A stretch of 64,000 nucleotides of DNA from Ophelia neglecta (taxonomy: Eukaryota): the NCBI GenBank assembly GCA_965285935.1, contig OZ260663.1:86180001-86244000 (forward strand). Reading direction: 5' to 3'. This document shows, piece by piece, positions 3,408 through 34,463 of the stretch. Positions within the stretch are counted from its first letter, which is position 1. Every line of letters begins with the position of its first letter. The notes beneath the pieces were generated by a model that had not been told where the DNA came from, did not search any database, and worked only from the letters and a program-made list of their open reading frames with translations. The translations under genes and the position numbers were made by a program.

Positions 3408-4475
3408 ATGGTCGGAACCTTCCGGACTCTACATGCTTTACATTTCTATTCTAAAAATAAAGACTGGATGAAGATGGAACCTACCGAGAGTTCACTTCTC
3501 GAAGTCAACACATGGACTTGGTATGTAACGGAAAGTGTAACAGACTTCCCTTTGAGCTCATTGTTAACCATATGTAGAATGAGTCTCGTATCTTTCGGCG
3601 TGATAATCGTTATTTTCAAATCGTTCACACTTTTCAGCATGTTCAAATATGGCTTCGTTCGAAAGAGAAATAACATTTTTTTGGTAATAGTGTGCTTTGC
3701 CGATTTGCTTGCTGGGGCTTTCGGAATATACAACCCTGCATTAAACGAATTTTATGGGCAGGACTTAAGCTATTCAAGATGCGTGACTTCTGTCGGAGCC
3801 TCTATATATATATCTGGATTATCCATGTACAGCATGATGTTTGCCACTTTAGAGACTTACATAAGAATTGCCCACCCTTTCATTCACAATCGTCACGAAC
3901 ATTCCTGTCATTACTTTGCGGTTGCTGGTTTGATGTTGACTTGGCTTTTTATCGTATCTGTTGCGGCTCTTACGCAAAACAAATGGCATCCACAAATAAA
4001 TTGTGTTTTCCAAGAGATGATCGCTGGGGCACAGGGTATTTTTGTTATAGTCATGGTACCGACAATTCCACTAGTTATCATAGCGATTTTGTTTGTGAAG
4101 ATTCTGCAGGTGGCAAATCGACAACGGATGGCATTAGCTGCTATACAGGTTGACCACAATGAATCTGATGAAGAACGGGCAAAGAAAAAGAAAATTAGCC
4201 AAAGAATTAAACTTTTCAAATCGTTGGTGATTCTCATGTATATTTCAGCGATTCCATTCGTCACGCGAGGAGTTATTTATGCCATATTGGGTGAAAATAA
4301 CCCTATGTCATCATTATCGATACTTGGTCGCACCGTGGTATATTTAACTGTGCTTTTAAACAATTTTGCTAATCCCTTTCTGTTCCAAAGATTCTCTCCT
4401 GATGTCAGGAAAGCACATGCAGCTATATACGAACGTTTTTGTTGCGCCAAAAAAAACGAAAATGCAATCCCATGA
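3408..4475 (+). CDS. Intronless orphan class A GPCR, copy A
   Basis: Seven hydrophobic segments; TM2 CFADLL, C3.25 with ECL2 Cys, ETY-IRIAHPF, TM4 W, P5.50, TM6 AIPF, TM7 NNFANPFLF, helix 8 followed by CC. First in-frame ATG is 3408; ATG 3474 (AAGATGG, MEPTESS, 333 aa) has the better Kozak context. N1.50 is K in this copy. Confidence 0.92.
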   Translation: MVGTFRTLHALHFYSKNKDWMKMEPTESSLLEVNTWTWYVTESVTDFPLSSLLTICRMSLVSFGVIIVIFKSFTLFSMFKYGFVRKRNNIFLVIVCFADLLAGAFGIYNPALNEFYGQDLSYSRCVTSVGASIYISGLSMYSMMFATLETYIRIAHPFIHNRHEHSCHYFAVAGLMLTWLFIVSVAALTQNKWHPQINCVFQEMIAGAQGIFVIVMVPTIPLVIIAILFVKILQVANRQRMALAAIQVDHNESDEERAKKKKISQRIKLFKSLVILMYISAIPFVTRGVIYAILGENNPMSSLSILGRTVVYLTVLLNNFANPFLFQRFSPDVRKAHAAIYERFCCAKKNENAIP

Positions 4476-4515
4476 AAATAGAAATGTTTGGAATCGGATT
4501 AGGTATGGGATATTA

Positions 4516-5248
4516 CAGCAGAAACTCGTCACATAAAGAAAATCGAAAAAAAAACCCAAACTCGGTTTGGATGCAGAAATCACAAATCAATTTGCAGCTG
4601 ACGTCACTTCCTATGAGATTGGAAGTGGCTTCCCAAGTACTCTCGTAGTGCGTACATTGTTTCGCTAACTATAGTAGGGAAGGTATGTTCTTTGCCTATG
4701 AAATACATGATATGTTTCGTTTTTCTTTATTTCTCGCGGTGTGCAACTTTAGGTTATTTCATTTCCCGTACTGGTATAAAAACTATATTACCATATTCGA
4801 ACCTTACCGCGTTTTGTGACGTCAGAGGGTCAAGTGCTTGTCACGAGTCTGCTGCTTGCCTCCAGATTTCAAAGCTTGTACATCGTCGGTGGGTTGGTAC
4901 TGCCGTATCAGTTTGTGAACATTGGAGAGCGATATGAATAAATTTTCCGCGATATATTTAGGCGAATGTCCCTGAATGTGAAATTGGTATATCACTCTCC
5001 CCCGCAGATCTCTGCTCAAAGCCTTGACCATGACAAGATGACGACTGCGGCAATGTAGCGCTGTTGTAATAACACTGCATTTCCCCCATCTATATATAGG
5101 TAGGCACCCGTAAACAGGGCACAGCCTGTACCCGCCAATCTCATAGGAAGTGACGTCAGCTGCAAATTGATTTGTGATTTCTGCATCCAAACCGAGTTTG
5201 GGATTTTTTATTTTTTTTTGCTTTTCTTTATGTTGCGAATTTATGCTG
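4516..5248 (-). mobile_element. Internally deleted IS630/Tc1-mariner DNA transposon (733 bp)
   Basis: TIRs of about 107 bp (4516-4622 vs 5135-5248) and a TA TSD. The empty site GATAT-TA-AGAATT is present downstream of copies B, C, B' and C'. The interior encodes a transposase N-terminal HTH. Confidence 0.9.
4822..5031 (-). pseudogene. Truncated transposase: N-terminal paired-like HTH only (69 aa)
   Basis: MVKALSRDLRGRVIYQFHIQGHSPKYIAENLFISLSNVHKLIRQY...KSGG matches the IS630/Tc1 N-terminal pattern (S.DLR.RV...G.S...IA..L.IS...V). No DDE domain. TATATATA lies about 60 nt upstream (5091-5098). Confidence 0.75.
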
Positions 5249-6652
5249 TAAGAATTAAAGATAGAACATGTAGTTTATAATATTAATAAGATATGCGAAG
5301 CAGGAGGGCCACAGGGCTAGGAAATGTAATGAAAAATGGTAGACAGACGCTCAATGGGGCATGTGCCTCTCATTACGTAAAGACAGAGAATCAGTCGTAA
5401 ACTGTTAGATACAGTGGAGAGAATAATTGATCAGGAGCTATTTAGTCTCAATTCAAGTCCTTGTTTGCAGTTTACAAATTTTGTATACGCAATGTACTAA
5501 ACATCACATGTTTATTATATATTTTCCAAAAGAGATAATTCCCTAGAAAGATTATGCTTCAGATTAGGGTTTAACCCTGGGACTCCGAACTGTCTGGTGC
5601 GGCAGGTGTGATTTCTTAAATATTAAAATAGAATGCAAAATGGTAGGATACAATTTAAACATGAATGATTTCATTTTATGGATACTAATTCCATGAACAT
5701 TCAACATGTTTAACTGACCAGGTGTAGGAGCTGTTTGTTCCCCACATGGAGATAACACAATTAACCTAACCTAACATTCGTTCAGTCTATAAGGGTTAAC
5801 TTCCTAAATATCCACACTTTCTTGGTTGTTTGCATTTCTTCTTATCGAGTTAATGAGTATTACAACATTTGGTTAAATCACCCAGGTTTAATCATTTTAT
5901 ATTTAGTTGGTGAAATCATTAACGGAGGGTTAATATACCCTGGTAAATATAACCTAAATCATGTCTTTTGTCAAGAGTCACGTAATGATGCATTCAAAGT
6001 TCCCATTGTATTTGATTATGATTTAATGTGGTATTAATTTGTGGTAGAAACTGACAGAATTGGTAAAATTCGTAGTAAACACAGTACGGTCGCTGCAAGA
6101 TTACGCAGGCATCTGATGAAACTTGCATGTAGAGTTATTTGTTGTATAGTTATGGTTTTTCTTCAATAAATTCGAGTTGCAATAATAGGATCGTTTATAC
6201 TATCTGTTGGTGAGTATAGCAAATCTACCTAAAATCAATAGGTTCTCCTGAATCAATATCGAATTTTCTTAGTATATGTGGTTTATTTATATTTAAACAC
6301 CAGCTCTAGGTACAATAATAATGACACTAAGCCTGACAATAATAATTTATATTTAATTTCCTTAAAAAGCAGTAGAAAATTAATTGTCCACAGTAAAACA
6401 CGCGGTTTACAAGAAAACAACTATGAACAAGAGACTCAGGACCAACAAGAAACAATTAATACTTAATAAATTTATTTCTTAAGTAATTAGAAAGCAGTGA
6501 TATTTACCAACAATCTAAAGATCACCTATTGAAGCAAGCCCGATTTAGGGAAAAATAGAAGGTGCACCAAATCGGTAACGTTGACCTTCGCACGAACTAG
6601 CGCTTATAGCATTTTTTCAAGTTGATATAGGAGCCTTTGATATATATAATTG

Positions 6653-7514
6653 GTTTAAACATATTTTATTAACGGGACCGACCAAATAGCGCGGGGCTAA
6701 TCTAGTGGCTTCTCCCTAAATTTACAATACAGTTTAGTAACTTAGCATATGGATATGACATAGATAAACAGTCAAAGATAAACAGTTAAAGACGAATGAA
6801 TAACATCAACATATGTACATACATCTCGTACAGTATTTAGAATAACTAAATAGATAAAGATAAAGATAATAATAATTAAATTAAAATAAAATACGTGGTG
6901 CAAAAAAATAAATAATAATGATATTTAATATTAGTTGGTTGTGTCCCGTTATTTCAATATACAGACGTTTAAAACAGCCCGGTGTGAGTTTAAACTTTTG
7001 TCGTTCGTACCAAATAGTAAAGGAACGACCGAGGCGCGAATACCATTTGTGTAAAGGAAGTCCAGCATGGCGGCCCTGGAGACCACAAAACGGCTGCAGT
7101 GAAAAAAGTAATGAGAGGGTGTCTCATAATCCTCTCCACAAAGGCACAGTGGACTATCAATGCAGTGATTGTTAAACAGATCAGAATTTAAAGCGCTGCA
7201 TCCCATTCTCATCTCGGACAAGCTTATATTGATGGATCGGGAGCCCAGACGGAAGTAAGCAGAAGGCGAGGGAAGTGTAGGATTTGTTTTAACTTTAAAA
7301 ACGTTAAGAGAGACAAGAGATTGAAATTCCACAGGTAAATTATTCCACAATGAAATTGTATGAGGGAAGAAGGATCGTTTAAAGTACTCTGTTCGCACCT
7401 TGAACTGGGGAATTTTCATAGAGGCAGTAGAACGTGTGTGGTGACCATGATTAATCTTGGCTGGCAAGATTGAAATCAGATATTGGGGTGCTCTGTGGTG
7501 GTAAATTTTGTATA
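6653..7514 (-). mobile_element. 5'-truncated non-LTR retrotransposon (CR1/L2-like): ORF2 C-terminus and 3'UTR
   Basis: Perfect 14-bp TSD GATATATATAATTG (6639-6652, 7515-7528). Peptide RTEYFKRSFFPHTISLWNNLP and CCHC knuckle CLCG..ETPSHYFFHC. 3' end AATAAAATATGTTTAAAC. Empty sites near 16652, 31432 and 36983. Confidence 0.9.
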
Positions 7515-8486
7515 GATATATATAATTGTGTAGGTCAACCGGTACTTCGTAGATCGAAAGTACATTTAAATAAAGCTGCTAAAGTTTCTTTTCTATCGTT
7601 TTGAAACCAACCCATAAATCTCTGGGACACACAATGGCACCGTCACCATGTTGAAAATAGGCCACGCCTTATTTTTTTCGATCAAAAGTATGCACGATGG
7701 TGTTGAAACCTTCTCTCCAAAAGCGGTCTATGGCCCGTGGATACATGAATATTCGATTTCGAAATGGATTTGTTATTTTCAAATTGGGAGTAGGCCAAAG
7801 CTTATTTTTGACTTCAAAATGTATTCTCGATTAGCTTCAGGGTTCGCGGTATGCACTGTATGTATACTTCTACATGCAATCAATCAATCCCGGCCCTATA
7901 CTAAATAAATTTATACCAAATATAAGTCAAACCTGGATCATAACTTAAATGCACCAGAATTGCTTTTAAGCAAAAAAGGTTATATAAAATTCACTAAGAT
8001 AACTTAATTATAAAAAAGGAATTAAATATTCATAAGCTCTGAATGTCGAAATATTCAAAATCATGTAAGTTCGCATTCGACGCCAAGATTTCAACGTGCT
8101 TTTAATTAAGAAACATTCATTGAGAAATAATCGAAACATCAAATGGATCAAAATTATAAATTCAGGAAAAAATAAATTGCCTGGACCTGATGGTTTATAA
8201 TTTATTCTTTTGGACCAACATGATAAAATGTTCTGATGTCTGACCCAGTGTCATATCATTTTGTTGATAAGATTATCCTTATTTTAAAACAGTAAAAGAT
8301 TAAATCGAAATATCAGTCACACTTTGCCTCTTTTGTATTATCCTTTACTGTGACACAATGTGCTTGAGGTGCTGATAAACTGCATTGAGTAAAGCTATAT
8401 ATATATATTAAAGCTATGCCTTTTTATTTGACAAATGCAAATAATTAGCCAATATAAACAAACAATAGTAAAAAAATATCGTTATA

Positions 8487-8688
8487 CCGGTATTTCGGGG
8501 GTAGTAACTGGCCCACCCGATGTCAGCATAATGTGACTGGGTGGGGTTCCCTGTCTGGTGTCTACGGCAGGTACACCAGTGAGGCAGCACTATAAAGAGG
8601 GCATTGGGCCCACTGTCACAAGTAGGCACCGTGGCGATATGACCATATCAGTGTTGAAAGCCACGTAAAACACCAACTAACCAACCAA
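8487..8688 (+). mobile_element. 5'-truncated duplicate of the SINE at 128-456
   Basis: Same core, tail and 3' flank (CCCAGCGGTATCAG), so it was copied by segmental duplication rather than retrotransposition. Confidence 0.85.
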
Positions 8689-9563
8689 CCCAGCGGTATC
8701 AGCGATTCATCCACAACAAATTGGCAACAGTAATTGAGACTCCGGCTGTTCAATAGGGGTCTCCAGAGATCAGTACCCCCATGTTCGCCAGGTGGCGCGT
8801 CATGTATCCGACCAACATGACACTACTTGAAGGGTTAAATTTCAAATTGGCGGAGAGTGGAAAGCGGACAGCGAATGTAATAAGAAAACACACTTATATA
8901 TCAAAGTGGACAGTGACCGATTGCCGGAAATATGCGAAGCAAAGGAATGATCACAATTCTAGCGGCGGAACAAGTCAAATAGGCTATGTTGCCTGGTAGT
9001 TAAATTAACTCCTGGGTGCCTTATTATATCATCAAAATGGGAAAACACTATGGCTAACATCATAAAGTACACCTATAAATTATAAATGTATATAAAGTTT
9101 CAACCCTATGAAATAAAAGTCTAATAAGTGTACCGGCGGTTCCATGTTTTCAAACATCTAGGTGCATTGAATATTATATTTTATTTTCTAGTGAAAGTTC
9201 CCAATTATTTATGACCAATCTCTACCCCCTCACCGAAATTTATCGCCTCTTCTATTCTCGAAAATGTTCCACACTTGACAATTTCTTCAACTCTGAAAAA
9301 CGTAAGGGACACCTTAAAAAACAAAATTTAAATTCTTAACTTGCAGGTGTGAAATGTGAATATTGAATAGATGAATACGACATTAATAATGGTTATTTAA
9401 TCGACTTTTGATCAGTCAACTTTAATCGTAGCAGTGCATAGTCGGGCAGAAATAGTATAACACGCCAGCAACGTGACTATACGTGCATGCCAATTCTCAT
9501 TCAGGTGTAGATCAGGGTTCGACGGAACCCCGTGACGTCACGGGTCGATCCAGTATATACGTT

Positions 9564-9741
9564 CAGTGAAACCTACCTTAAATACCACCTCCATAGTGAG
9601 ACCACCTGTCATTTCGGACCACTAATATAAAGACCATGCAGTACTATTTCAATGTAAAATTACCTGTATAAACAGACCACCTCAATAATCAGACCAGTAT
9701 TTTCAAGTCCATTGGGTGGTCTTAATTCACAGGTTTCACTG
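9564..9741. mobile_element. MITE, duplicate of 1327-1504
   Basis: CAGTGAAACCT...AGGTTTCACTG in the same flanking context. Confidence 0.85.
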
Positions 9742-11448
9742 TATATCGAATGTGCAGAACCGGCTTCTCATATATCTGCGGGCCTCGGTATCGTAGGGGG
9801 CACTCCGAATAATTTTTTTAGTGATTAATCACAATAAGCGGCTGAACATACTTCATTAAATCGATAGATGGCATCAACTTAGATCCAAATGTAAAATGCT
9901 TGACGAGGAAAGGCAATTATTTTCTCCACCATCTGGACAAAGAAGAATTTAAACGAAAAGGATAGCAGCATCGTATCTGTTCCAAAATTGCCCACATTCG
10001 GATTGCTCGGAGAAACCCGAGTTGTTAGCGATTTTTGTCAATTATTGGGCTCATTTTACTTGGAATGCCAGGGCAAATGGCAAAGAATAGCGAGGTACAA
10101 CATCCTATAATAGGGTTTTGGTGCAAAATAGCCTTTTTTTCCAAAATCACCGACCGAAACGTTAGTTAGTTTCATGCAGACTATGACAAAAAGTCCGATT
10201 TGTTGACGATATTTTTATTATTCTTTAACATGTTAACGAGTTAATATTTAGGTAATATGGGAGAGAGATACAAAGAAATAGCGTGTATTAAGATAGGAAA
10301 AGTGCTCAATAGACTCATTCGCCGAAAAAAAAAACTTTTCAATGGACTAGACAGCTACTTGCATGCTGACTTTTGTGACAGCACCCATTTTATCATTACA
10401 AGTCTAGCTGTGTACATAGGTAACGTTAGGATTCAGAAATGAAAACATAAAAGGCGCGTAAATGAATTCAAAATATAGGTAATTAAAAACGAGTTTCTGT
10501 GGTAATGAGTGTTTACAGAGCGTTTGCTTTAGGAGGCAAGTCAAGGAAGCTTATAACTCTTAACGTTTAATAAATACGTATTTTAAGCGAGTTAATTTTC
10601 GTTATTTTACGCTATGTCGCTCGAGGATACTACGTAAAGACTATGTAGGTGCAGCTACATAGCTAAATACAATTTATTGCAGCAATAAATTACTTTCTAA
10701 TTTTTGGGACAACTGTTTTGTATATAATAATAATTTAGAATACTTAATGCAGGAATGGGTACAAATGTTTGCCACTTTTTCTGGTACAGGCCGTAACAAT
10801 GTGGAATAGGTTATAATTGTAAAAGGGCATGTGAACATGTGACCAAGTGTGCGGTCAGCCGTGGATGAAGCTGTATTGGCTAGGTCCTTTCCACACTGAC
10901 CCTCTGCCAGACAGATACTGTTTGAACCCTCCTCCAGCCCAATCACCGACCAACTAAGACTAATTATTATTGAGGAAATTATATATACTTCGGCTTCTCG
11001 AGTAGGTGGGTGGATGATTTGCACACTGAATAATACTATCGGCAAACTTATAGGTTATAATATTTCCTGTGTAAACCAACTAATTTCTGCATAATATTCG
11101 ATGAGCAGTTCATTTGTATGTTCAATTATGTAGTGGGTTACTTGCCTCCACCTTTGTGAATTTGTTATATTAAATGATATAACCATATCCGACACTATCA
11201 ATTGCTTGTTTTTGTTAATTCACAAATAGAACTGCATCTTTCGTTGACACATAAAATTAGAAAACGGTTAGTGAAAATAAAGGTGAGTGTGTGTGTGGGG
11301 GGGGGGGGCGGGGGGGGGGGATAGACGGAATTGGAGGTCATGGACATTTCTAGAGGCAATGAAGCATGATATACTTACTGAACGGTTAACGCTCAGGTTG
11401 AAGTTCATTTTAGGGTTAGAGTTAGGGTTATTAAAGTCTTGTGTTGTT

Positions 11449-11511
11449 TTATAATCTGAGGACTTCCTCTGGTTTTTTATTTAAAAACCAGGGGAAGTCC
11501 TCAGATTATAA
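11449..11511. repeat. 63-bp near-perfect inverted repeat (hairpin) next to a TTAGGG-like tract
   Basis: 29-bp arms TTATAATCTGAGGACTTCCYCTGGTTTTT with 1 mismatch and a 5-nt loop. TTAGGGTTAGAGTTAGGGTTA at 11410-11430. Duplicate at about 26225-26287. Confidence 0.9.
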
Positions 11512-11955
11512 CATTATATTATTAAACAATGCGGCGCCAAAGTGCTGAACTTCAGCCGAAACATTGGAACAAGAAGGCATCTCCAAATTAGTGTCAGCTG
11601 GATGGTATCCATCACTTATGCCCGGATGTACGTGGATATGCGTTTGTCAGATTCATAGACCTGCACATCCATTCAGTACTATACATAACGAAGTATAATA
11701 GCTTAAAATGTCACGCGACTTACTCGATTTGTCAAGGTCGTATTTAGTGATATATTCGAGATGAAATTCGCATGGGCGATAATGAGAGAAAGAACTCATA
11801 ACTTCATCTCTGGTTCCAGGTTTATTCTGTTTTCATCCATCAATGCTTATGGAAGGGAAAGTGTAAAGTTTATGAACGTGCCCATAGAAACTTTTTAATT
11901 TGATTTCTATTGTTTAAAGTACCTTCTGATAAGTGTAAATGAAAAAGTGCATGTA

Positions 11956-12130
11956 GAGTGAAACCGTTGAATTAAGACCATCCCGGGGACTGACAAATAC
12001 TGGTCTGGTTATAGAAGTAGTCTGTTTATACAAGCTATTTTCATTGAAAGTGAAAACTGTTATTTTTATTAGTGGTCTGAATTGCCAGGTGGTCTTAATA
12101 TAAAGGTGGTCTATAAGGCAGGTTTCTCTC
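11956..12130. mobile_element. MITE of the CAGTGAAACC/AGACCA family, opposite orientation, diverged
   Basis: TA|GAGTGAAACC...GGTTTCTCTC|TA with internal TGGTCT repeats. Confidence 0.75.
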
Positions 12131-13085
12131 TAACCATTAACATACATTCGCTCATTGCTCTTTCATGCATGGCCTACCTTTATCAAATTCCTCTAATAGC
12201 ACCTATTATAACAGGTAAATGATAGATTGTGTTCGGCCAGTGGAAATGGTCGGCGCTGGTACAAAATGGTAGCCTGGGGTAATAATGATAGGCGGTTGTA
12301 GATCATGGTGAAAAATGCTAGAATGAGGTAAAAAATGACGATGGTGAAACACGGTAATAATTATTGAAATGGTCTGACGGTCATTTGTCTACCTGTATTA
12401 ACTCTTAATTTGAGCTTTCCGTGGTGATCTGTTTAACCATCAGGGGACAGACTTTCAGACATGGATTTTGATTTTACTCCCCCGAAGTGGTACACGTGTT
12501 GTTCAGGCGTAGTGATACCTTACTTAGGCGTGGTGATTTGACATCCAAAGCGGTTTATATTTTTTACCCGTTCTTTGTAATATCATATCATTTTTAATTA
12601 TATAACATTTTGAAATGGAGAGAGGTACATTTCCTTACGCCACAGTGATAAGTGGCATATTCATAATAATTTTCCCCCGATCATATCAAAAGATGCGGCT
12701 TATTTGGACTGAGTGGCACAATGAAGTGAGTGAACCTTGTCGGAATGCCATACTACTCTACTCACTTCTATAATTATCGTTATAATTTGTTAAACTATCC
12801 GTGGAATTAGAATAATCAAGTCTATTACAGTAATATGACGCAAGTATCCAAATAATACAAGCCCATTAACTCCCCGAGCTAGCTCTCAAGCTAATTTTGT
12901 ATAGACAACAAACTGTGGATGTTGAAATTGACACTTGTACGGGCATTAGAAATAAACTGATTAGTCGATACAACATTAACTCGATCCTACCGGGAGTATT
13001 CATATGACTTTTAGTGTCTTTGATCATCATTCTCCCTGTTTAAATCACCTTATTTCACCCACTCTACACCCTCATGAACCAGCGG

Positions 13086-13244
13086 CAGGGGGGGATCCAG
13101 GGGGGCCTGCCCCCCCCCATACTAATTTTTTTACTCTGAAAAGCCTATCCATGCATGTACCTTTCTTAGGCCACCCCCCCCCCCCCACACACACACACAC
13201 ACATGGAGTGCCCCACCCCCTGGAAATTCCTGGATCCGTCCCTG
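13086..13244. mobile_element. Small non-autonomous DNA element (CAGGGGCGGATCCAG-type TIR, hAT-like)
   Basis: TIR CAGGGGGGGATCCAGG / CCTGGATCCGTCCCTG with poly-C and (CA)n inside. No clean TSD. Copy at 27862-28020; right-truncated copies start at 18012 and 32792. Confidence 0.65.
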
Positions 13245-13815
13245 ATCGGTTACCAAAAACTTTTACAAACGCTAAAACTGCTCAACAAAAATATTATCTT
13301 TCGACCGTAAGCCTCGGTCTAATGGTGATGCTAGTGAGGCCGAACATATTTGGCAGCGTAAAGCACTCCTTCAAGTATTTTTCATTTTTCTGGGTCAGAC
13401 ATTCTTAAACTGCAAGACAGAGGGATCACATCTATCTGGTTATCGAGTCCTTGACCTTCAGGAATGAAAGTACTAACCACATATCTGATATTGGAGAAAA
13501 TCTTCTGGGGCCCACTTCAAGAAAAAACAACCTGGTGTGACGTGTTAAAATATACTCGTGATAGGACGCATTTGAATATAATGACGACCAATCAACGAAC
13601 GAAACCGCTCGTCTCTTTGTCTTATAATGAGCATTTGCCAGGTTGAGGCCAGATTTATTTGTTGAAAAGCAGGTGTAGCAGGCATATGTTAATATATGAT
13701 CCAGAGTGTGAATTGCACAGTTATACTCGGCTATTTATAAGGAGGCAGAAGAAAAACAAAAACAAGACAAGATTTCAGGAAAGATTGTCTCATTCCGTAA
13801 CTGATACTCCGTTTG

Positions 13816-23263: not shown

Positions 23264-23465
23264 CCGGTATTTCGGGGGTAGTAACTGGCCCACCCGATGT
23301 CAGCATAATGTGACTGGGTGGGGTTCCCTGTCTGGTGTCTACGGCAGGTACACCAGTGAGGCAGCACTATAAAGAGGGCATTGGGCCCACTGTCACAAGT
23401 AGGCACCGTGGCGATATGACCATATCAGTGTTGAAAGCCACGTAAAACACCAACTAACCAACCAA
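23264..23465 (+). mobile_element. 5'-truncated SINE duplicate
   Basis: Same sequence and context as 8487-8688. Confidence 0.85.
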
Positions 23466-24340
23466 CCCAGCGGTATCAGCGATTCATCCACAACAAATTG
23501 GCAACAGTAATTGAGACTCCGGCTGTTCAATAGGGGTCTCCAGAGATCAGTACCCCCATGTTCGCCAGGTGGCGCGTCATGTATCCGACCAACATGACAC
23601 TACTTGAAGGGTTAAATTTCAAATTGGCGGAGAGTGGAAAGCGGACAGCGAATGTAATAAGAAAACACACTTATATATCAAAGTGGACAGTGACCGATTG
23701 CCGGAAATATGCGAAGCAAAGGAATGATCACAATTCTAGCGGCGGAACAAGTCAAATAGGCTATGTTGCCTGGTAGTTAAATTAACTCCTGGGTGCCTTA
23801 TTATATCATCAAAATGGGAAAACACTATGGCTAACATCATAAAGTACACCTATAAATTATAAATGTATATAAAGTTTCAACCCTATGAAATAAAAGTCTA
23901 ATAAGTGTACCGGCGGTTCCATGTTTTCAAACATCTAGGTGCATTGAATATTATATTTTATTTTCTAGTGAAAGTTCCCAATTATTTATGACCAATCTCT
24001 ACCCCCTCACCGAAATTTATCGCCTCTTCTATTCTCGAAAATGTTCCACACTTGACAATTTCTTCAACTCTGAAAAACGTAAGGGACACCTTAAAAAACA
24101 AAATTTAAATTCTTAACTTGCAGGTGTGAAATGTGAATATTGAATAGATGAATACGACATTAATAATGGTTATTTAATCGACTTTTGATCAGTCAACTTT
24201 AATCGTAGCAGTGCATAGTCGGGCAGAAATAGTATAACACGCCAGCAACGTGACTATACGTGCATGCCAATTCTCATTCAGGTGTAGATCAGGGTTCGAC
24301 GGAACCCCGTGACGTCACGGGTCGATCCAGTATATACGTT

Positions 24341-24518
24341 CAGTGAAACCTACCTTAAATACCACCTCCATAGTGAGACCACCTGTCATTTCGGACCACT
24401 AATATAAAGACCATGCAGTACTATTTCAATGTAAAATTACCTGTATAAACAGACCACCTCAATAATCAGACCAGTATTTTCAAGTCCATTGGGTGGTCTT
24501 AATTCACAGGTTTCACTG
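24341..24518. mobile_element. MITE duplicate
   Basis: Same as 9564-9741. Confidence 0.85.
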
Positions 24519-26731
24519 TATATCGAATGTGCAGAACCGGCTTCTCATATATCTGCGGGCCTCGGTATCGTAGGGGGCACTCCGAATAATTTTTTTAGTG
24601 ATTAATCACAATAAGCGGCTGAACATACTTCATTAAATCGATAGATGGCATCAACTTAGATCCAAATGTAAAATGCTTGACGAGGAAAGGCAATTATTTT
24701 CTCCACCATCTGGACAAAGAAGAATTTAAACGAAAAGGATAGCAGCATCGTATCTGTTCCAAAATTGCCCACATTCGGATTGCTCGGAGAAACCCGAGTT
24801 GTTAGCGATTTTTGTCAATTATTGGGCTCATTTTACTTGGAATGCCAGGGCAAATGGCAAAGAATAGCGAGGTACAACATCCTATAATAGGGTTTTGGTG
24901 CAAAATAGTCTTTTTTTCCAAAATCACCGACCGAAACGTTAGTTAGTTTCATGCAGACTATGACAAAAAGTCCGATTTGTTGACGATATTTTTATTATTC
25001 TTTAACATGTTAACGAGTTAATATTTAGGTAATATGGGAGAGAGATACAAAGAAATAGCGTGTATTAAGATAGGAAAAGTGCTCAATAGACTCATTCGCC
25101 GAAAAAAAAAACTTTTCAATGGACTAGACAGCTACTTGCATGCTGACTTTTGTGACAGCACCCATTTTATCATTACAAGTCTAGCTGTGTACATAGGTAA
25201 CGTTAGGATTCAGAAATGAAAACATAAAAGGCGCGTAAATGAATTCAAAATATAGGTAATTAAAAACGAGTTTCTGTGGTAATGAGTGTTTACAGAGCGT
25301 TTGCTTTAGGAGGCAAGTCAAGGAAGCTTATAACTCTTAACGTTTAATAATAACGTATTTTAAGCGAGTTAATTTTCGTTATTTTACGCTATGTCGCTCG
25401 AGGATACTACGTAAAGACTATGTAGGTGCAGCTACATAGCTAAATACAATTTATTGCAGCAATAAATTACTTTCTAATTTTTGGGACAACTGTTTTGTAT
25501 ATAATAATAATTTAGAATACTTAATGCAGGAATGGGTACAAATGTTTGCCACTTTTTCTGGTACAGGCCGTAACAATGTGGAATAGGTTATAATTGTAAA
25601 AGGGCATGTGAACATGTGACCAAGTGTGCGGTCAGCCGTGGATGAAGCTGTATTGGCTAGGTCCTTTCCACACTGACCCTCTGCCAGACAGATACTGTTT
25701 GAACCCTCCTCCAGCCCAATCACCGACCAACTAAGACTAATTATTATTGAGGAAATTATATATACTTCGGCTTCTCGAGTAGGTGGGTGGATGATTTGCA
25801 CACTGAATAATACTATCGGCAAACTTATAGGTTATAATATTTCCTGTGTAAACCAACTAATTTCTGCATAATATTCGATGAGCAGTTCATTTGTATGTTC
25901 AATTATGTAGTGGGTTACTTGCCTCCACCTTTGTGAATTTGTTATATTAAATGATATAACCATATCCGACACTATCAATTGCTTGTTTTTGTTAATTCAC
26001 AAATAGAACTGCATCTTTCGTTGACACATAAAATTAGAAAACGGTTAGTGAAAATAAAGGTGAGTGTGTGTGTGGGGGGGGCGGGGGGGGGGGGGGATAG
26101 ACGGAATTGGAGGTCATGGACATTTCTAGAGGCAATGAAGCATGATATACTTACTGAACGGTTAACGCTCAGGTTGAAGTTCATTTTAGGGTTAGAGTTA
26201 GGGTTATTAAAGTCTTGTGTTGTTTTATAATCTGAGGACTTCCTTTGGTTTTTTATTTAAAAACCAGGGGAAGTCCTCAGATTATAACATTATATTATTA
26301 AACAATGCGGCGCCAAAGTGCTGAACTTCAGCCGAAACATTGGAACAAGAAGGCATCTCCAAATTAGTGTCAGCTGGATGGTATCCATCACTTATGCCCG
26401 GATGTACGTGGATATGCGTTTGTCAGATTCATAGACCTGCACATCCATTCAGTACTATACATAACGAAGTATAATAGCTTAAAATGTCACGCGACTTACT
26501 CGATTTGTCGAGGTCGTATTTAGTGATATATTCGAGATGAAATTCGCATGGGCGATAATGAGAGAAAGAACTCATAACTTCATCTCTGGTTCCAGGTTTA
26601 TTCTGTTTTCATCCATCAATGCTTATGGAAGGGAAAGTGTAAAGTTTATGAACGTGCCCATAGAAACTTTTTAATTTGATTTCTATTGTTTAAAGTACCT
26701 TCTGATAAGTGTAAATGAAAAAGTGCATGTA

Positions 26732-26906
26732 GAGTGAAACCGTTGAATTAAGACCATCCCGGGGACTGACAAATACTGGTCTGGTTATAGAAGTAGTCTG
26801 TTTATACAAGCTATTTTCATTGAAAGTGAAAACTGTTATTTTTATTAGTGGTCTGAATTGCCAGGTGGTCTTAATATAAAGGTGGTCTATAAGGCAGGTT
26901 TCTCTC
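26732..26906. mobile_element. MITE duplicate
   Basis: Same as 11956-12130. Confidence 0.75.
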
Positions 26907-28595
26907 TAACCATTAACATACATTCGCTCATTGCTCTTTCATGCATGGCCTACCTTTATCAAATTCCTCTAATAGCACCTATTATAACAGGTAAATGATA
27001 GATTGTGTTCGGCCAGTGGAAATGGTCGGCGCTGGTACAAAATGGTAGCCTGGGGTAATAATGATAGGCGGTTGTAGATCATGGTGAAAAATGCTAGAAT
27101 GAGGTAAAAAATGACGATGGTGAAACACGGTAATAATTATTGAAATGGTCTGACGGTCATTTGTCTACCTGTATTAACTCTTAATTTGAGCTTTCCGTGG
27201 TGATCTGTTTAACCATCAGGGGACAGACTTTCAGACATGGATTTTGATTTTACTCCCCCGAAGTGGTACACGTGTTGTTCAGGCGTAGTGATACCTTACT
27301 TAGGCGTGGTGATTTGACATCCAAAGCGGTTTATATTTTTTACCCGTTCTTTGTAATATCATATCATTTTTAATTATATAACATTTTGAAATGGAGAGAG
27401 GTACATTTCCTTACGCCACAGTGATAAGTGGCATATTCATAATAATTTTCCCCCGATCATATCAAAAGATGCGGCTTATTTGGACTGAGTGGCACAATGA
27501 AGTGAGTGAACCTTGTCGGAATGCCATACTACTCTACTCACTTCTATAATTATCGTTATAATTTGTTAAACTATCCGTGGAATTAGAATAATCAAGTCTA
27601 TTACAGTAATATGACGCAAGTATCCAAATAATACAAGCCCATTAACTCCCCGAGCTAGCTCTCAAGCTAATTTTGTATAGACAACAAACTGTGGATGTTG
27701 AAATTGACACTTGTACGGGCATTAGAAATAAACTGATTAGTCGATACAACATTAACTCGATCCTACCGGGAGTATTCATATGACTTTTAGTGTCTTTGAT
27801 CATCATTCTCCCTGTTTAAATCACCTTATTTCACCCACTCTACACCCTCATGAACCAGCGGCAGGGGGGGATCCAGGGGGGCCTGCCCCCCCCCCCATAC
27901 TAATTTTTTTACTCTGAAAAGCCTATCCATGCATGTACCTTTCTTAGGCCACCCCCCCCCCCCCACACACACACACACATGGAGTGCCCCACCCCCTGGA
28001 AATTCCTGGATCCGTCCCTGATCGGTTACCAAAAACTTTTACAAACGCTAAAACTGCTCAACAAAAATATTATCTTTCGACCGTAAGCCTCGGTCTAATG
28101 GTGATGCTAGTGAGGCCGAACATATTTGGCAGCGTAAAGCACTCCTTCAAGTATTTTTCATTTTTCTGGGTCAGACATTCTGAAACTGCAAGACAGAGGG
28201 ATCACATCTATCTTGTTATCGAGTCCTTGACCTTCAGGAATGAAAGTACTAACCACATATCTGATATTGGAGAAAATCTTCTGGGGCCCACTTCAAGAAA
28301 AAACAACCTGGTGTGACGTGTTAAAATATACTCGATCGTGATAGGACGCATTTGAATATAATGACGACCAATCAACGAACGAAACCGCTCGTCTCTTTGT
28401 CTTATAATGAGCATTTGCCAGGTTGAGGCCAGATTTATTTGTTGAAAAGCAGGTGTAGCAGGCATCTGTTAATATATGATCCAGAGTGTGAATTGCACAT
28501 TTATACTCGGCTATTTATAAGGAGGCAGAAGAAAAACAAAAACAAGACAAGATTTCAGGAAAGATTGTCTCATTCCGTAACTGATACTCCGTTTG

Positions 28596-29663
28596 ATGGT
28601 CGGAACTTTCTGGACTCTACAAGCTATAAATTTCCATTCTGAAAATAAAGACTGTAAGAAGATGGAACCTACCGAGAGTTCACTTCTCGAGGTTAACACA
28701 TGGACTTGGTATGTAACGGAAAGTGTAAAAGACTTCACTTCGAGCTCATTGTTAACCATATGTAGAATGAGTCTCGTAGCTTTCGGCGTGATAATCGTTA
28801 TTTTCAACTCGTTCACACTTTTCAGCATGTTCAAATATGGCTTCGTTCAAAAGAGAAATAACATTTTTTTGGTAATAGTGTGTTTTGCCGATTTGCTTGC
28901 TGGGGCTTTCGGAATATACAACCCAGCATTAAACGAGTTTTATGGGCAGGACTTAAGCTATTCAAGTTGTGTGACTTCTGTCGGAGCCTCTATATATATA
29001 TCTGGATTATCCATGTACAGCATGACTTTTGCCACATTGGAGACTTACATAAGAATTGCCCACCCTTTCATTCACAATCTTTACGAACATTCCTGGCATT
29101 ACTTTGCGGTTGCTGGTTTGATGATGACTTGGCTTCTTATCGTATCTGTTGTGGCTCTTACGCAAAACAAATGGCATCCACAAACAATTTGTATTTTTCA
29201 AGAGGTGATCGCTGGGGCACAGGGTATTTTTGTGATATTCACGGCAACGATAATTCAACTAGTTATCATAGCGATTTTGTTTGTGAAGATTCTGCAGGTG
29301 GCAAATCGACAACGGATGGCCATAGCTGCTATACAGGTTGACCACAATGAATCTGATGAAGAACGGGCAAAGAAAAAGAAAAATGGCCAAAGAATTAAAC
29401 TTATCAAATCGTTGGTGATTCTCATGTATATTTTGGCGATTCCATTCGTCACGCGAGGAGTTATTTATGCCTTATTGGGTGAAAATTACCCTATGTCATC
29501 ATTATCGATACTTGGTCGCACCGTGGTATATTTCACTGTGCTTTTAAACAATTTTGCTAATCCCTTTCTTTTCCAAAGATTCTCACCTGATGTCAGGAAA
29601 GCACATGCAGCTATATACGAACGTGTTTGTTGCGTCAAAAAGAGCGAAAGCGCAATCCCATGA
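28596..29663 (+). CDS. Intronless orphan class A GPCR, copy B'
   Basis: Protein identical to B; one synonymous GTT/GTG difference seen (14520 vs 29300). Alternative start at 28662. Confidence 0.92.
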   Translation: MVGTFWTLQAINFHSENKDCKKMEPTESSLLEVNTWTWYVTESVKDFTSSSLLTICRMSLVAFGVIIVIFNSFTLFSMFKYGFVQKRNNIFLVIVCFADLLAGAFGIYNPALNEFYGQDLSYSSCVTSVGASIYISGLSMYSMTFATLETYIRIAHPFIHNLYEHSWHYFAVAGLMMTWLLIVSVVALTQNKWHPQTICIFQEVIAGAQGIFVIFTATIIQLVIIAILFVKILQVANRQRMAIAAIQVDHNESDEERAKKKKNGQRIKLIKSLVILMYILAIPFVTRGVIYALLGENYPMSSLSILGRTVVYFTVLLNNFANPFLFQRFSPDVRKAHAAIYERVCCVKKSESAIP

Positions 29664-32600
29664 AAATAGAAATGTTTGGAATCGGATTAGGTATCGGATA
29701 TTAAGAATTAAAGATAGAACATGTAGTTTACAATTAAATTGTTACCTGAACAAATTTAAGCATGAAAGTTAATACAAATCTCAAATATATATCATTCAAT
29801 TGCGTTTGATGTAAATCCATTATAGCAAGTTATTATAATAATAAGACATGCGAAGCAGGAGGGCCAAAGGGCTAGGAAATGTAATGAAAAATGTTGGACA
29901 GACGCTCAATGGGGCATGCGCCTCTCATTACGTAAAGAAGACAGTGAAGAGAATAATTGATCAGGAGATATTAAGTCTCAATTCAAGTCCTTTTTTGCAG
30001 TTTACAAATTTTGTATACGCCATGTACTAAACATCACATGTTTATTATATATTTTCCAAAAGAGATGATTCCCTAGAAAGATTATGCTTCAGATTAGGGT
30101 TTAACCCTGGGACTCCGAACTGTCTGGTGCGGCAGGTGTGTTTTTTTAATTATTAAAATAGAATGCAAAATGGTAGGATAAAATTAAAACATGAATGTTT
30201 TCATTTTATGGATATTAATTCCATGAACATTCAACATGTTTAGCTGACCAGTTGTAGGAGCTGTGTGTTCCCCACATGGAGATAACACAATTAACCTAAC
30301 TTCCGAGACAGACACTGGCTGTTATGGCGTTATGCGTTAGATTTCCAGCCCTTAAAATCATATTTGTCATATTTATGACTCATTCGTTCAGTCTATAAGG
30401 GTTAACTTCCTAAATAGCCACACTTTCTTTGTTGTTTGCATTTCTTCTTATCGAGTTAATGAGTATTACAACATTTGGTTAAATCACTCCGGTTTAATCA
30501 TTTTTTATTAAGTTGGTGAAGTCATTGACGGAGTGTTTATATGCCCTGGTAAATATAACCTAAATCATGTCTCTTGTCAAGAGTCACCTTAAGTTGCATT
30601 CAAATTTCCAATTTTATTTGATTATGATTTAATGTGGTAGAAATTTGCTGTAGAAACTGCCAGAATTGGTAAAGTTGTCTGATTCTAAAATTTATAGTTA
30701 TTCGTGGTTAAACTATTTTATTATTTCATAAGAATCCGTACTTTTCAACGGCTAATTGCATATCGTGTATGATTGTATGATAGTACGCGTTCAACATTGT
30801 TATTCCAATTTTAAAAATATTGTTTAGATTACAGTTGTAAACACAGTACGGTCGCTGCAAGATTACGCAGGCATCTGATGTAGCTTTCATGTAGAGTTAT
30901 TTGTTGTATAGTTATGGTTTTTCTTCAATAAATTCGAGTTGTAATTATTGGAGCAGTTATTGAGTTTATACTATCTGTTGGTGAGTAAAGCAAATCAACC
31001 TAATATCAATAAGTTCTCCTGAATCAATATCGAATTTTCTTAGTATATGCGGTTAATTTATATTTAAACACCAGCTCTATGCACAATGATAATAACAATG
31101 AGCCTGACAATAATAATTTATTTCTAATTTTCCTTAAAAAGCAGTAGAAAATTTTGACCACAGTAAAACACGCGGTTTACGAGAAAATAACTATGAACAA
31201 GAGACTCAGGACCAACAAGAAAACAATTAATAATTGATATATTTATTCCTTAAGTACTTAGAAAGCAGTGATAATTACCAACAATCTAAAGATCTCCTAT
31301 TGAAGCAAGCCCGATTCAGGGAATAACAGAAGGTGCATCAAATCGGTAACGTTGACCTTCGCCCGAAGTAGCGCTTATAACGTTTTTTCAAGTTGATATA
31401 GGAGCCTTTGAGGTTTTCAAGGGGACACCGTGATATATATAATTGAGCAGGTCAACCGTTACTTCGTAGATCAAAAGTACATTTAAACAAAGCTGCTATA
31501 GTTTCGTTTCTATCGTTTTGAAACCAACCCATAAATCTCTGGGACAAACAATGGTACTGTCACCATGTTGAAAGTAGGTCACGCCTTATTTTTTTCGATC
31601 AAAAGTACGCACGATGGTGTTGAAACTTTCTCTCCGAAAGCGGCGATGGCCCGTGGATACATGAACATTTGATTTCGAAATGGATTTGTTATTTACAAAT
31701 TGGGAGTAGGCCAAAGCTTATTTTTGTTTTCAAAGTGTGTTCTTGATTAGCTTCAGGGTTCGCGGTATGCACTGATGTATTAAGATAGGAAAAGTGCTCA
31801 AAAGACTCAATAGACTCTATAAGGCAGGTTTCACTCTAACCATTTACATACATTCGCTCATTGCTCTTTCATGCATGTCATACCTTTATCAAATTGCTCT
31901 AATAGCACCTATTTTAACAGGTAAATGATAGATTGTGTTCGGCCATTGGAAAATGGTCGGCGCTGGTACAAAATGGTAGGCTTGGGTAAAAATGGTAGGC
32001 GGTTGTAGATCATGGTATAAAATGGTAGAATGTGGTAAAAAATGATAGGCGATGGTGAAACACGGTAATAATTATTGAGATGGTCTGACGGTCATTTGGC
32101 TACCTGTATTAACTCTTAATTTGAGTTTTCCGTGGTGATCTGTTTAACTATCAGGGGACAGACTTTCAGACATTGGATTGTGATTTTACTCCCCCAGAGT
32201 GGTACACTTATTGTTCAGGCGTAATGATACCTTACTTAGGCGTGGTGATTTGGCACCCAAAGCGTTTATATTTTATACACGTTCGTTGTAGTATCATATT
32301 AATTTTTATTATATAAGCTTTTAAATGGGAGAAAGGTACATTTCCTTACGCCACAGTGATAAGTGGCATATTCATAATAATTTACCCCGATCATATCAAA
32401 AGCTGCGGCTTATTAAGACTGAGTGGCACAATGAAGTGAGTGCACCTTGTCGGAATGACTTACTACTCTACTCACTTCTATAATTATCGTTACTATTTTG
32501 TAATACTATCCGAGGAATTAGAATAATCAAGTCTATTACAGTAATATGATGGAAGTATCCAAATAGCCTAATACAAGTCCATGAACCCCTGAGCTAGCTC

Positions 32601-33395
32601 TCAAGCTAATTGTGTGTAGACAACAAACTGTGGATGTTGAAATTGAAACTTGTACGGACATTAGGAATTGGCTGATTAGTCGATACAACATTAACTCGAT
32701 CCTTCCGGGAGTATTCATATGATCTTTGATCATCGTTCTCCCTGCTTAAATCACCTAATTACACCCACTCTACACCCTCATGAACCCGCGGCAGGGGCGG
32801 ATCCAGGGGGGCCTGCCCCCCCCCCCCCCATACCAATTTTTTTTTACTCTGAAAAGCCCATCTATGCATGTACCTTTCGATCGTAAGCCTCGGACTAATG
32901 GTGATGCTGAGGAGGCCGAACATATTTGGCAGCGTACTGCACTCCTTCAAGTATTTTTCCGGGCCAGACATTCTTAAAGCGCAAGGCGGAGGGATCACAT
33001 CTATCTGGTTATCGAGTCCTTGACCTTCAGGAATGAAAGTACTTACCACATATCAGATATTGGAGATAATCACCTGGGGCCCACTTCAAGAAACAAACAA
33101 CCTGGTGTGACGTGTTAAAATATACTCGATCGTGATAGGACGCATTTGAATATAATGACGACCAATCAACGAACGAAACCGCTCGTCTCCTTGTCTTATA
33201 GGCCTAATGAGCATTTGCCAGTATCAAGCCAGATTTATTTGTTAAAAAGCAGGTGTAGCAGGCATCTGTCAATATATGATCCACAGTGTGAATTGCACAT
33301 TTATACTCGGCTATTTATAAGGAGGCAGAAGAAAAACAAAAACAAGACGAGATTTCAGGGAAGGATGTCTCATTCCGTGACTGATACTCCGATTG

Positions 33396-34463
33396 ATGGT
33401 CGGAACCTTCTGGACTCTACATGCTTTAAATTTCTATTCTAAAAATAAAGACTGTATGAAGATGGAACCTACCGAGAGTTCACTTCTCGAAGTTAACACA
33501 TGGACTTGGTATGTAACGGAAAGTGTAAAAGACTTCACTTCGAGCTCATTGTTAACCATATGTAGAATGAGTCTCGTATCTTTCGGCGTGATAATCGTTC
33601 TTTTCAACTCGTTCACACTTTTTAGCATGTTCAAATATGGCTTCGTTCAAAAGAGAAATAACATTTTTTTGGTATTAGTGTGCTTTGCCGATTTGCTTGC
33701 TGGGGCTTTCGGAATATACAACCCTGCATCAAACGAGTTTTATGGGCAGGACTTAAGCTATTCAAGTTGTGTGACTTCTGTCGGAGCCACTTTATATATA
33801 ACTGGATTATCCGCATACAGCATGATGTTTGCCACTTTGGAGACTTACATAAGAATTGCCCACCCTTTTATTCACAATCGTTACGAACATTCCTGTCATT
33901 ACTTTGCGGTTGCTGGTTTGATGGTGACTTGGCTTCTTATCGTATCTGTTGTGGCTCTTACGCAAAACAAATGGCACCCACAAATACATTGTGCTTTCCA
34001 AGATATGGCCGCTGGGGCACAGGGTGCTTTTGTTATATTCACGGAAATGATAATTCCACTAGTTATCATAGCGATTTTGTTTGTGAAGATTCTGCAGGTG
34101 GCAAAACGACAACGGATGGCCATAGCTGCTATACATGTTGACCACAATGAATCTGATGAAGAACGGGCAAAGAAAAAGAAAATTGGCCAGAGAATTAAAC
34201 TTATCAAATGGATGGTGATTCTCCTGTATATTTTAGCGATCCCATTCGTCTCGCGAGGAGTTATCTATGCCTTATTAGGTGAAAATAACCCTATGTCATC
34301 ATTATCGATACTTGTTCGCTCCTTTGTTTATTTAAGTGTGCTTTTAAACAGTTTTATTAATCCCCTTCTGTTCCAAAGATTCTCTCCTGATGTCAGGAAA
34401 GCACATGCAGCTATATACGAACGTTTTTGTTGCGCCAAAAAGAGCGAAAGCGCAATCCCATGA
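33396..34463 (+). CDS. Intronless orphan class A GPCR, copy C'
   Basis: Differs from C in ECL2 (W vs C), TM6 (I vs M) and one codon of the optional N-terminal extension. Alternative start at 33462. Confidence 0.92.
   Translation: MVGTFWTLHALNFYSKNKDCMKMEPTESSLLEVNTWTWYVTESVKDFTSSSLLTICRMSLVSFGVIIVLFNSFTLFSMFKYGFVQKRNNIFLVLVCFADLLAGAFGIYNPASNEFYGQDLSYSSCVTSVGATLYITGLSAYSMMFATLETYIRIAHPFIHNRYEHSCHYFAVAGLMVTWLLIVSVVALTQNKWHPQIHCAFQDMAAGAQGAFVIFTEMIIPLVIIAILFVKILQVAKRQRMAIAAIHVDHNESDEERAKKKKIGQRIKLIKWMVILLYILAIPFVSRGVIYALLGENNPMSSLSILVRSFVYLSVLLNSFINPLLFQRFSPDVRKAHAAIYERFCCAKKSESAIP

What the first reader, a model, noticed from the sequence alone, without database searches (positions are those of the whole stretch)
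3408..34463. Expanding orphan GPCR family in which all the main class A activation switches are replaced
Seen, counting from C3.25, P5.50, P6.50 and P7.50: all five copies have R3.50T (ETY), Y5.58F, W6.48A and Y7.53F (NPxLF). They keep D2.50, S3.39, N7.45 and N7.49 (Na+ pocket), the TM3-ECL2 cysteines and a di-Cys after helix 8. Established: R3.50, Y5.58 and Y7.53 together stabilise the active, G-protein-coupled state. Inference: joint loss of these interacting residues in ORFs that stay intact and keep duplicating suggests a lineage-specific family with non-canonical activation, arrestin-biased signalling or a decoy/scavenger role, plausibly chemosensory. This is the best candidate for an undescribed system in the window.
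Basis: partly seen in the sequence, partly recalled or inferred. Interest (0 to 1): 0.72.

Follow-up and report, generated by a model that had tools for sequence, protein, structure and literature searches.

The report
Tandem invertebrate receptors lacking activation switches
A cluster of intact, recently multiplied cell-surface receptor genes, probably from an annelid worm, has replaced the amino acids that such receptors normally use to switch on but keeps much of the surface that docks a G protein, so it probably signals by an unusual route.

Summary
The motif observation holds: five intronless 355-codon class A GPCR ORFs share T3.50, F5.58, A6.48, F7.53 and keep the Na+ pocket residues. 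Corrections: they are three paralog types plus a 15-kb, 99.2%-identical duplication that may be an assembly duplicate; two copies lack P5.50; the switch losses are one inherited event.

T3.50 is rare: all 148 aligned relatives keep R or K there; W6.48 loss is common (53 of 146). Nearest relatives (about 20-25% identity; the named best hits are annelid) had already lost Y5.58. Frames are kept: 0 frameshifts against about 8.5 expected.

Partner residues of the lost switches (E6.30, F8.50) are gone too, while I3.54, P34.50/F34.51, A5.65, Q5.68 and a long basic TM5/TM6 remain, unlike the arrestin-only C5aR2. Best reading (0.5): a lophotrochozoan lineage-specific, chemoreceptor-type expansion that still couples to G protein without the Arg/Tyr latch. 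Expression is untested. The scan noted a similar pattern before in a probable crustacean genome.

The parts
3408..4475 (+). GPCR copy c1 (type A), single exon, 355 aa; private N1.50K; true start may be M23 (3474)
   Evidence: (7tm_1 51.9 bits, cut-off 30.5)
13816..14883 (+). GPCR copy c2 (type B); P5.50Q
18615..19682 (+). GPCR copy c3 (type C); 3 nt and 3 aa from c5
28596..29663 (+). GPCR copy c4 (type B); protein identical to c2, 1 synonymous nt difference
33396..34463 (+). GPCR copy c5 (type C); modelled as 7TM plus helix 8, mean pLDDT 88.4
6059..35811 (+). Tandem 14.8-kb duplication (6059-21018 vs 20840-35811, 99.17%) that doubles types B and C; recent unequal crossover or haplotype duplicate in the assembly
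   Evidence: 49 mismatches in the first 14 kb
20840..20883 (.). Approximate junction: the 3' flank of c3 switches from c5-like to c1-like
3079..3407 (+). Upstream block shared by all copies, with TGACGTG (3117), CCAAT (3178), CAGGTG (3262) and TATA-like (3324) words; promoter labels recalled, not tested against chance. Distal part 4 variable of 99 columns, proximal part 36 of 209
251..2152 (+). Diverged copy (88-94%) of the 3' flank found at 8487-10400, suggesting another array unit left of the window
   Evidence: inference
36554..37453 (+). End of the array: 3' flank of c5, homologous to 16228-16960 and 6242-8169

Best explanation
A lineage-specific tandem expansion of single-exon class A GPCRs in a lophotrochozoan, probably an annelid, working as a small-ligand, probably chemosensory, receptor family that still couples to a G protein but without the Arg/Tyr latch. 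Shown: both the active-state latch (R3.50, Y5.58, Y7.53) and its inactive-state partners (E6.30, F8.50, W6.48/F6.44, L2.46, L3.43, I3.46) are replaced, while the Na+ site and most alpha5-docking positions are kept. Inferred: the Na+ site is the remaining off-state anchor; ligand binding in a pocket widened by small residues (A6.48, G3.37, G6.55, S/T3.32, S/T3.36) lets TM6 move; the G-alpha C-terminus docks on I3.54, P34.50/F34.51, I5.61, A5.65, Q5.68 and I5.72; and the invariant R153 (3.53, one turn below 3.50) supplies the missing positive charge. Efficacy is probably low. Paralogs differ at pocket-facing positions (3.32, 3.33, 3.36, 3.40, 5.46, 5.47, 7.36), which would tune ligand preference.
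For: 7tm_1 above cut-off in 3 of 3 types; confident 7TM model, best matches beta1AR/CB1/M5/A2A. No frameshift in 1065 bp on three lineages against about 8.5 expected from flank indel rates, P about 2e-4; no stop, P 0.03 in 5000 neutral simulations. 20 of 23 G-protein-contact positions (list recalled) are invariant across the three types; I3.54, P34.50, F34.51, I5.61, A5.65, Q5.68 match the commonest residue among relatives. The model has TM5 helical to residue 246, TM6 from 254 and a helical ICL2; residues 257-272 carry 8 K/R and no acid. Nonsynonymous rate is 1.9-fold higher in the outer than the inner membrane half (p 0.014), synonymous rate not different (p 0.52), the pattern reported for lophotrochozoan expansions (PMC11886862 section 22). 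EHV2-ORF74 with DTW signals through Gi and ETB with NPxxL couples to Gi.
Against: dN/dS 0.93 overall, interval about 0.6-1.5, with 0.5 or less rejected; inner half 0.72 and outer 1.11, neither different from 1. Paralog changes do not significantly avoid family-conserved columns (3 of 30 vs 5.8 expected, p 0.13); outer vs inner variable residues 29 of 128 vs 23 of 163, p 0.065, and pocket vs G-protein positions 10 of 34 vs 3 of 23, p 0.20. c1 has N1.50K and c2/c4 P5.50Q, which look damaging. Position 5.69 is Arg; a charge there impaired Gs coupling in D1R (bioRxiv 2022.01.18.476830). Loss of both tyrosines makes beta1AR deficient in G-protein activation (PMC7200737), and no relative among 148 lacks a basic residue at 3.50. 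The model is built on an alignment of canonical relatives and may inherit their shape. The chemosensory role rests on genomic layout only.
Confidence: 0.5

Rival explanations
1. G-protein-uncoupled receptors that bind ligand and act as scavengers, arrestin-only signallers or heterodimer modulators; the protein must stay whole and folded but its sequence is loosely constrained.
For: C5aR2 replaces the same two residues (L3.50, F7.53) and does not activate G proteins. Four switches lost together; intact frames with dN/dS near 1 fit a product needed whole but loosely constrained. Di-Cys after helix 8 and an acidic-context Ser in ICL3 are kept.
Against: C5aR2's other blocking features are absent: long TM5/TM6, helical ICL2 and a basic cytoplasmic face here. 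Residues 327-355 hold only 1-3 Ser/Thr, and c1 has none after the di-Cys; a Ser/Thr-rich tail as an arrestin feature is recalled, not from a call. Docking positions match G-protein-coupled relatives.
Confidence: 0.22
2. Redundant duplicates under relaxed selection, drifting toward loss; the switch replacements are degeneration on a long stem branch and the present copies do little or nothing.
For: dN/dS indistinguishable from 1; N1.50K and P5.50Q; match to family consensus at the 30 best-conserved columns only 0.57-0.67 against a median of 0.83, with 11 of 135 relatives at or below c5. Coding divergence 5.9-7.0% is close to flank divergence 6.6-11.4% (leaving out the c1-c3 downstream value of 3.4%, which spans the duplication junction).
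Against: Zero indels and stops in 3 of 3 independent types where flanks carry 30 frame-breaking indels in 5621 aligned bases; no broken copy found by tblastn in the window. D2.50, S3.39, N7.45, N7.49, P6.50, P7.50, W4.50 and the disulfide survived a stem of about 1.06 changes per column. Upstream promoter-like block conserved.
Confidence: 0.2
3. Constitutively active, ligand-modulated receptors: with the ionic lock and hydrophobic lock gone they signal at rest, and ligands act as inverse agonists or tuners.
For: EHV2-ORF74 (DTW) is constitutively active and restoring DRY lowered its activity 4-fold (PMC3414077). E6.30, L3.43, I3.46 and F8.50 are replaced here.
Against: The Na+ pocket, which favours the inactive state (established knowledge), is complete; the Tyr bridge that holds the active state is absent.
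Confidence: 0.08

Closest known systems
Lophotrochozoan lineage-specific class A GPCR expansions, candidate chemoreceptors (Nath et al. 2025, PMC11886862; Aplysia AcCR, PMC2700072)
   Same: Tandem, same-orientation, single-exon paralogs without close orthologues; faster change in extracellular halves; retroelement remains between copies.
   Different: Those families are described as keeping DRY/NPxxY or ERC with the Arg; these lack it. They keep the TM3-ECL2 cysteines and have an ECL2 of about 17 residues, whereas that paper reports no conserved TM3-ECL2 link and 25-30 residues. No sensory expression data here.
Annelid orphan 'adenosine/aminergic-like' class A receptors (Owenia CAH1798665.1, CAH1799812.1; Lamellibrachia KAI0216332.1; Paralvinella KAK2156087.1; unnamed P0001, P0086)
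   Same: Best profile hits (E 1e-14 to 1e-10); share HPF in ICL2 and the A/V-x-x-Q/H-x-x-x-I TM5 extension; P0001 and P0086 group with the query (SH-aLRT 85) and lack Y5.58.
   Different: Only about 18-26% identical; all with a residue there keep R or K at 3.50; P0086 keeps Y7.53.
C5aR2 (arrestin-coupled, DLC and NPxxF; bioRxiv 2025.11.01.685996)
   Same: R3.50 and Y7.53 both replaced, F at 7.53.
   Different: Unrelated branch; C5aR2 has short TM5/TM6/ICL3, non-helical ICL2, a hydrophobic cavity and a TM3-TM5 disulfide, none seen here.
EHV2-ORF74 (DTW; PMC3414077)
   Same: The same Arg-to-Thr change at 3.50, in a receptor that activates Gi.
   Different: Viral chemokine receptor; its state at 5.58, 6.48 and 7.53 was not checked here.
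Gs-coupled beta-adrenergic, D1, TAAR, A2A, 5-HT6 receptors
   Same: Top solved-structure matches by sequence profile and fold; A5.65, Q5.68, I5.72, I5.75, F34.51 present.
   Different: No D3.32, no N6.55, Arg at 5.69; all main switches replaced.

Membership tests
Class A (rhodopsin-like) GPCR | Pfam 7tm_1 above gathering score | tested here: met
   51.9, 51.5, 56.2 bits vs 30.5 for c1, c2, c3
Class A (rhodopsin-like) GPCR | Seven TM helices plus helix 8 with class A fold | tested here: met
   pLDDT 88.4, pTM 0.83; Foldseek prob 1.0 to beta1AR, CB1, A2A
Class A (rhodopsin-like) GPCR | Canonical D/ERY, CWxP, NPxxY motifs | tested here: not met
   ETY, (S/L)A(I/M)P, NPxLF; other landmarks kept; class A holds known exceptions
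Lophotrochozoan lineage-specific expansion (candidate chemoreceptors) | Tandem cluster of single-exon paralogs | tested here: met
Lophotrochozoan lineage-specific expansion (candidate chemoreceptors) | Species-specific clade, no one-to-one orthologue | tested here: met
   0 hits among 5525 candidates; best of 168 hits E 1e-14; clade support 99 on a 1.06 stem; limited by database coverage
Lophotrochozoan lineage-specific expansion (candidate chemoreceptors) | Faster evolution or positive selection in extracellular halves | tested here: inconclusive
   nonsynonymous 1.9-fold higher outside, p 0.014; omega outer 1.11 not above 1; residue-level p 0.065
Lophotrochozoan lineage-specific expansion (candidate chemoreceptors) | Expression in sensory epithelium | not testable with these tools
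Atypical arrestin-coupled receptor (C5aR2-like) | R3.50 and Y7.53 replaced | tested here: met
Atypical arrestin-coupled receptor (C5aR2-like) | Short TM5/TM6/ICL3, non-helical ICL2, hydrophobic cytoplasmic cavity | tested here: not met
   model helices 157-162, 207-246, 254-297; 8 K/R in 257-272; model may be biased by its alignment
Atypical arrestin-coupled receptor (C5aR2-like) | No G-protein activation, arrestin recruitment | not testable with these tools
   needs cell assays
Gs-selective receptors | A/V5.65 with hydrophobic 5.69 | tested here: not met
   A236 present, R240 at 5.69; F34.51, I5.72 present
Aminergic receptors, opsins, adenosine receptors | D3.32; K7.43; N6.55 (positions recalled) | tested here: not met
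   S/T132, L316, G288
Pseudogene | Stops or frameshifts | tested here: not met
   0 in 5 of 5 copies; about 8.5 frameshifts expected

The most novel reading that the evidence does not exclude
An animal-encoded, expanding class A family that activates G proteins by a rebuilt mechanism: the whole Arg-Tyr-Tyr latch and its inactive-state partners are gone, sodium alone holds the off state, and an arginine shifted one turn down TM3 (3.53) does the job of R3.50. It would be the end point of a stepwise series visible in living relatives (Y5.58 lost, then Y7.53F, then R3.50K or T), a natural experiment on the minimal activation machinery.
Probability: 0.25. Interest if true: 0.7.

Novelty: new variant of a known kind. 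Interest (0 to 1): 0.42.

Why it matters
R3.50, Y5.58 and Y7.53 are treated as the core of class A activation, and known exceptions mostly lose one or two of them. A family that lost all three plus W6.48, kept the sodium site and docking surface, and has relatives at intermediate stages offers a ready series for asking which switches are needed for G-protein coupling. It also warns that loss of DRY alone does not mark an invertebrate receptor as a decoy or pseudogene. The genomic kind itself, a tandem orphan GPCR expansion, is common in annelids (88-889 such genes per genome in PMC11886862), and no function is shown, which caps the score.

Tried and rejected
No whole genome held, so total copy number was not counted. 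Word-based homologue search: 0 hits among 5525 candidates; with an alignment, 4 hits at E<=1e-20 among 8000, one a query member and three canonical receptors. Single-sequence fold was unusable (pLDDT 47.7). Sequencing runs: no RNA holder listed; this is no evidence on expression. Laying three contig runs of one sample showed a c1-like variant (same 22 gap columns; 70 differences from c5 where c1 has 77) at about five times the depth of exact c5-flank contigs; the tool warns depth is no copy number, so it is only a hint of more copies, and it could not settle whether the 15-kb block is real. A strong pocket-versus-inside contrast (p about 1e-5) was rejected because I drew those regions after seeing the variable sites; the landmark-based split replaces it. 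An apparent excess of multi-hit codons (13) equals chance (13.7). The careful tree did not finish; the quick tree was used, 42 rows picked from 153; 10 short rows were dropped from the FastTree tree. Covariation of Y5.58 and Y7.53 loss (10 of 28 vs 3 of 117) and of basic 3.53 with Y5.58 loss (11 of 28 vs 12 of 120) is not counted as proof: rows are related, and two double-loss rows (P0001, P0092) are doubtful alignments. One search stopped with an error after its first tables; the rest was rerun. Paper search for ETY/DTY/R3.50T/DTW/Thr3.50 found nothing relevant; searches listed no description of this family.
Full report
Observation. Five + strand, single-exon ORFs of 355 codons lie at 3408, 13816, 18615, 28596 and 33396. 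The three tested score above the Pfam 7tm_1 cut-off, and a model built on a 140-row alignment is a confident seven-helix bundle with helix 8 (pLDDT 88.4) whose best solved matches are beta1-adrenergic, CB1, M5 and A2A receptors. T3.50, F5.58, A6.48 and F7.53 are present in all five, with identical codons. D2.50, S3.39, N7.45, N7.49, both disulfide cysteines and the di-Cys are invariant. Numbering was checked against 5-HT6 and MT1 and 150 relatives. Two details were missed: c2/c4 carry P5.50Q and c1 carries N1.50K.

Copy structure. There are three paralog types, 6-7% apart in DNA. c2/c4 differ by 1 nt and c3/c5 by 3 nt, because 6059-21018 is repeated at 20840-35811 with 99.17% identity. The 3' flank of c3 switches from c5-like to c1-like near 20840-20883, as unequal crossover would give; a haplotype duplicated in the assembly could look the same, and I could not tell them apart. 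A diverged 3' flank at 251-2152 suggests another unit left of the window (inference).

Relatives. No close homologue was found. The profile search gave 168 hits, best E 1e-14, of which 150 were returned, at about 14-25% identity. Four of the ten best carry names, all annelid (Owenia twice, Lamellibrachia, Paralvinella), and an Id/emc exon elsewhere in the window has a Paralvinella-clustered hit. A lophotrochozoan, probably annelid, source is inferred. Among relatives, 3.50 is R in 141 and K in 7 of 148, never T; Y7.53 is kept in 132 of 145, Y5.58 in 121 of 150, W6.48 in 93 of 146. So R3.50T is the unusual change and W6.48A is not. In two trees the query groups with P0001 (ERT, M5.58) and the fragment P0086 (S5.58, Y7.53), support 0.93 and 85, next to a clade with N5.58 and often F7.53 (0.44 and 70, weak). 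The losses therefore look stepwise and were inherited once by all five copies.

Selection. Against decay: flanks carry 30 frame-breaking indels in 5621 aligned bases, predicting about 8.5 in the coding region across three lineages; none is seen (P about 2e-4; AT-rich flanks may inflate the rate), and no stop (P 0.03). For relaxation: omega is 0.93 overall, interval about 0.6-1.5, and 0.5 or less is rejected. Outer and inner membrane halves give 1.11 and 0.72, neither different from 1. The nonsynonymous rate is 1.9-fold higher outside (p 0.014) while the synonymous rate is not (p 0.52); residue-level tests are not significant (p 0.065, 0.20), nor is avoidance of conserved columns (p 0.13). A stronger contrast used regions drawn after seeing the data and is set aside. 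The frame is kept; amino-acid constraint is weak or is a mix of diversifying and purifying sites that three sequences cannot resolve.

Mechanism. Beyond the four named switches, their partners are also replaced: E6.30 by I/N, F8.50 by V, F6.44 by M/L, C6.47 by S/L, L2.46 by V, L3.43 by M, I3.46 by A. Both the off-lock and the on-latch are gone, leaving the sodium site. In contrast I3.54, P34.50, F34.51, I5.61, A5.65, Q5.68 and I/L5.72 match the commonest residue in relatives, 20 of 23 recalled G-protein-contact positions are invariant among the types, TM5 stays helical to residue 246 and TM6 starts at 254 in the model, and the cytoplasmic end of TM6 is strongly basic. R153 at 3.53 is invariant; a basic residue there occurs in 23 of 148 relatives, more often in those lacking Y5.58, though they are kin. 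I infer that G-protein docking persists, with R3.53 replacing the lost charge, at low efficacy. Against this, 5.69 is Arg, which impaired Gs coupling in D1R, and beta1AR without both tyrosines is deficient in activation. The ligand is unknown: D3.32, K7.43 and N6.55 are absent, so it is not a standard amine, opsin or adenosine receptor (positions recalled). Variable residues at 3.32, 3.33, 3.36, 3.40, 5.46, 5.47 and 7.36 face the pocket by standard numbering.

Comparison with what is known. Tandem lineage-specific class A expansions are widespread in lophotrochozoans and annelids and are read as chemoreceptors (PMC11886862: abstract, passages, sections 15 and 22 read; supplements not opened, and they may hold this family or similar motif losses). 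Aplysia candidates are single-exon and clustered but keep the Arg (PMC2700072, passages). R3.50T occurs in EHV2-ORF74, which signals through Gi (PMC3414077, passages). NPxxL is compatible with Gi coupling in ETB (PMC11484851, passages). C5aR2 loses R3.50 and Y7.53 and is arrestin-only, but also has short TM5/TM6, a non-helical ICL2 and a hydrophobic cavity (bioRxiv 2025.11.01.685996, section 12 read). D1R motif: bioRxiv 2022.01.18.476830, passages; beta1AR: PMC7200737, passages. Searches (listings only) showed no account of this family or of an animal ETY receptor; the library lacks most subscription papers. An earlier unchecked note of this scan (e1-7499587) reports a similar motif-less tandem array in a probable crustacean, so the pattern may recur; I did not test it.

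Verdict. A real, intact, small GPCR expansion of a known genomic kind with an unusual, complete loss of the Arg-Tyr-Tyr latch. G-protein-coupled, chemoreceptor-type function 0.5; uncoupled decoy or arrestin receptor 0.22; relaxed duplicates 0.2; constitutive signaller 0.08. New variant of a known kind; interest 0.42.

Noticed in passing
window 61003-61432 (-): First coding exon of an Id/extramacrochaetae-type HLH gene (Pfam HLH 1.7e-12; Atlas Id1-like). A 64%-identical hit clusters with a Paralvinella protein, which fits an annelid source.
   Followed up: partly
window 4516-5274: 759-bp insertion private to the c1 3' flank with 117-bp, 88% terminal inverted repeats and a weak transposase-type HTH match (E 0.002); looks like a non-autonomous DNA transposon.
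   Followed up: partly
window 6949-7578 (-) and 21733-22359 (-): 3' end of a non-LTR retroelement ORF (weak zf-RVT, E 0.02), identical at protein level in both halves of the 15-kb duplication.
   Followed up: no
window 45527-46392: 47-bp tandem repeat, about 17 copies, open in all three + frames for 280-460 codons; no Pfam match for the longest ATG ORF. Probably a minisatellite.
   Followed up: no
window 15059-16058 and 20059-21018: Mismatches between the duplicated blocks are uneven (13 and 43 per kb against 0-9 elsewhere), suggesting gene conversion or mosaic flanks near the junction.
   Followed up: partly
window 50030-50362 (-); N run 51280-51415: Reverse-transcriptase fragment (RVT_1 E 2e-4) and a 136-base assembly gap.
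   Followed up: no
P0017, P0019, P0099, P0140, P0141, P0147: A clade of unnamed relatives with N/S5.58, F7.53, Y/F6.48 and K3.53, two with K3.50; it may be a wider family with partly rebuilt switches.
   Followed up: partly
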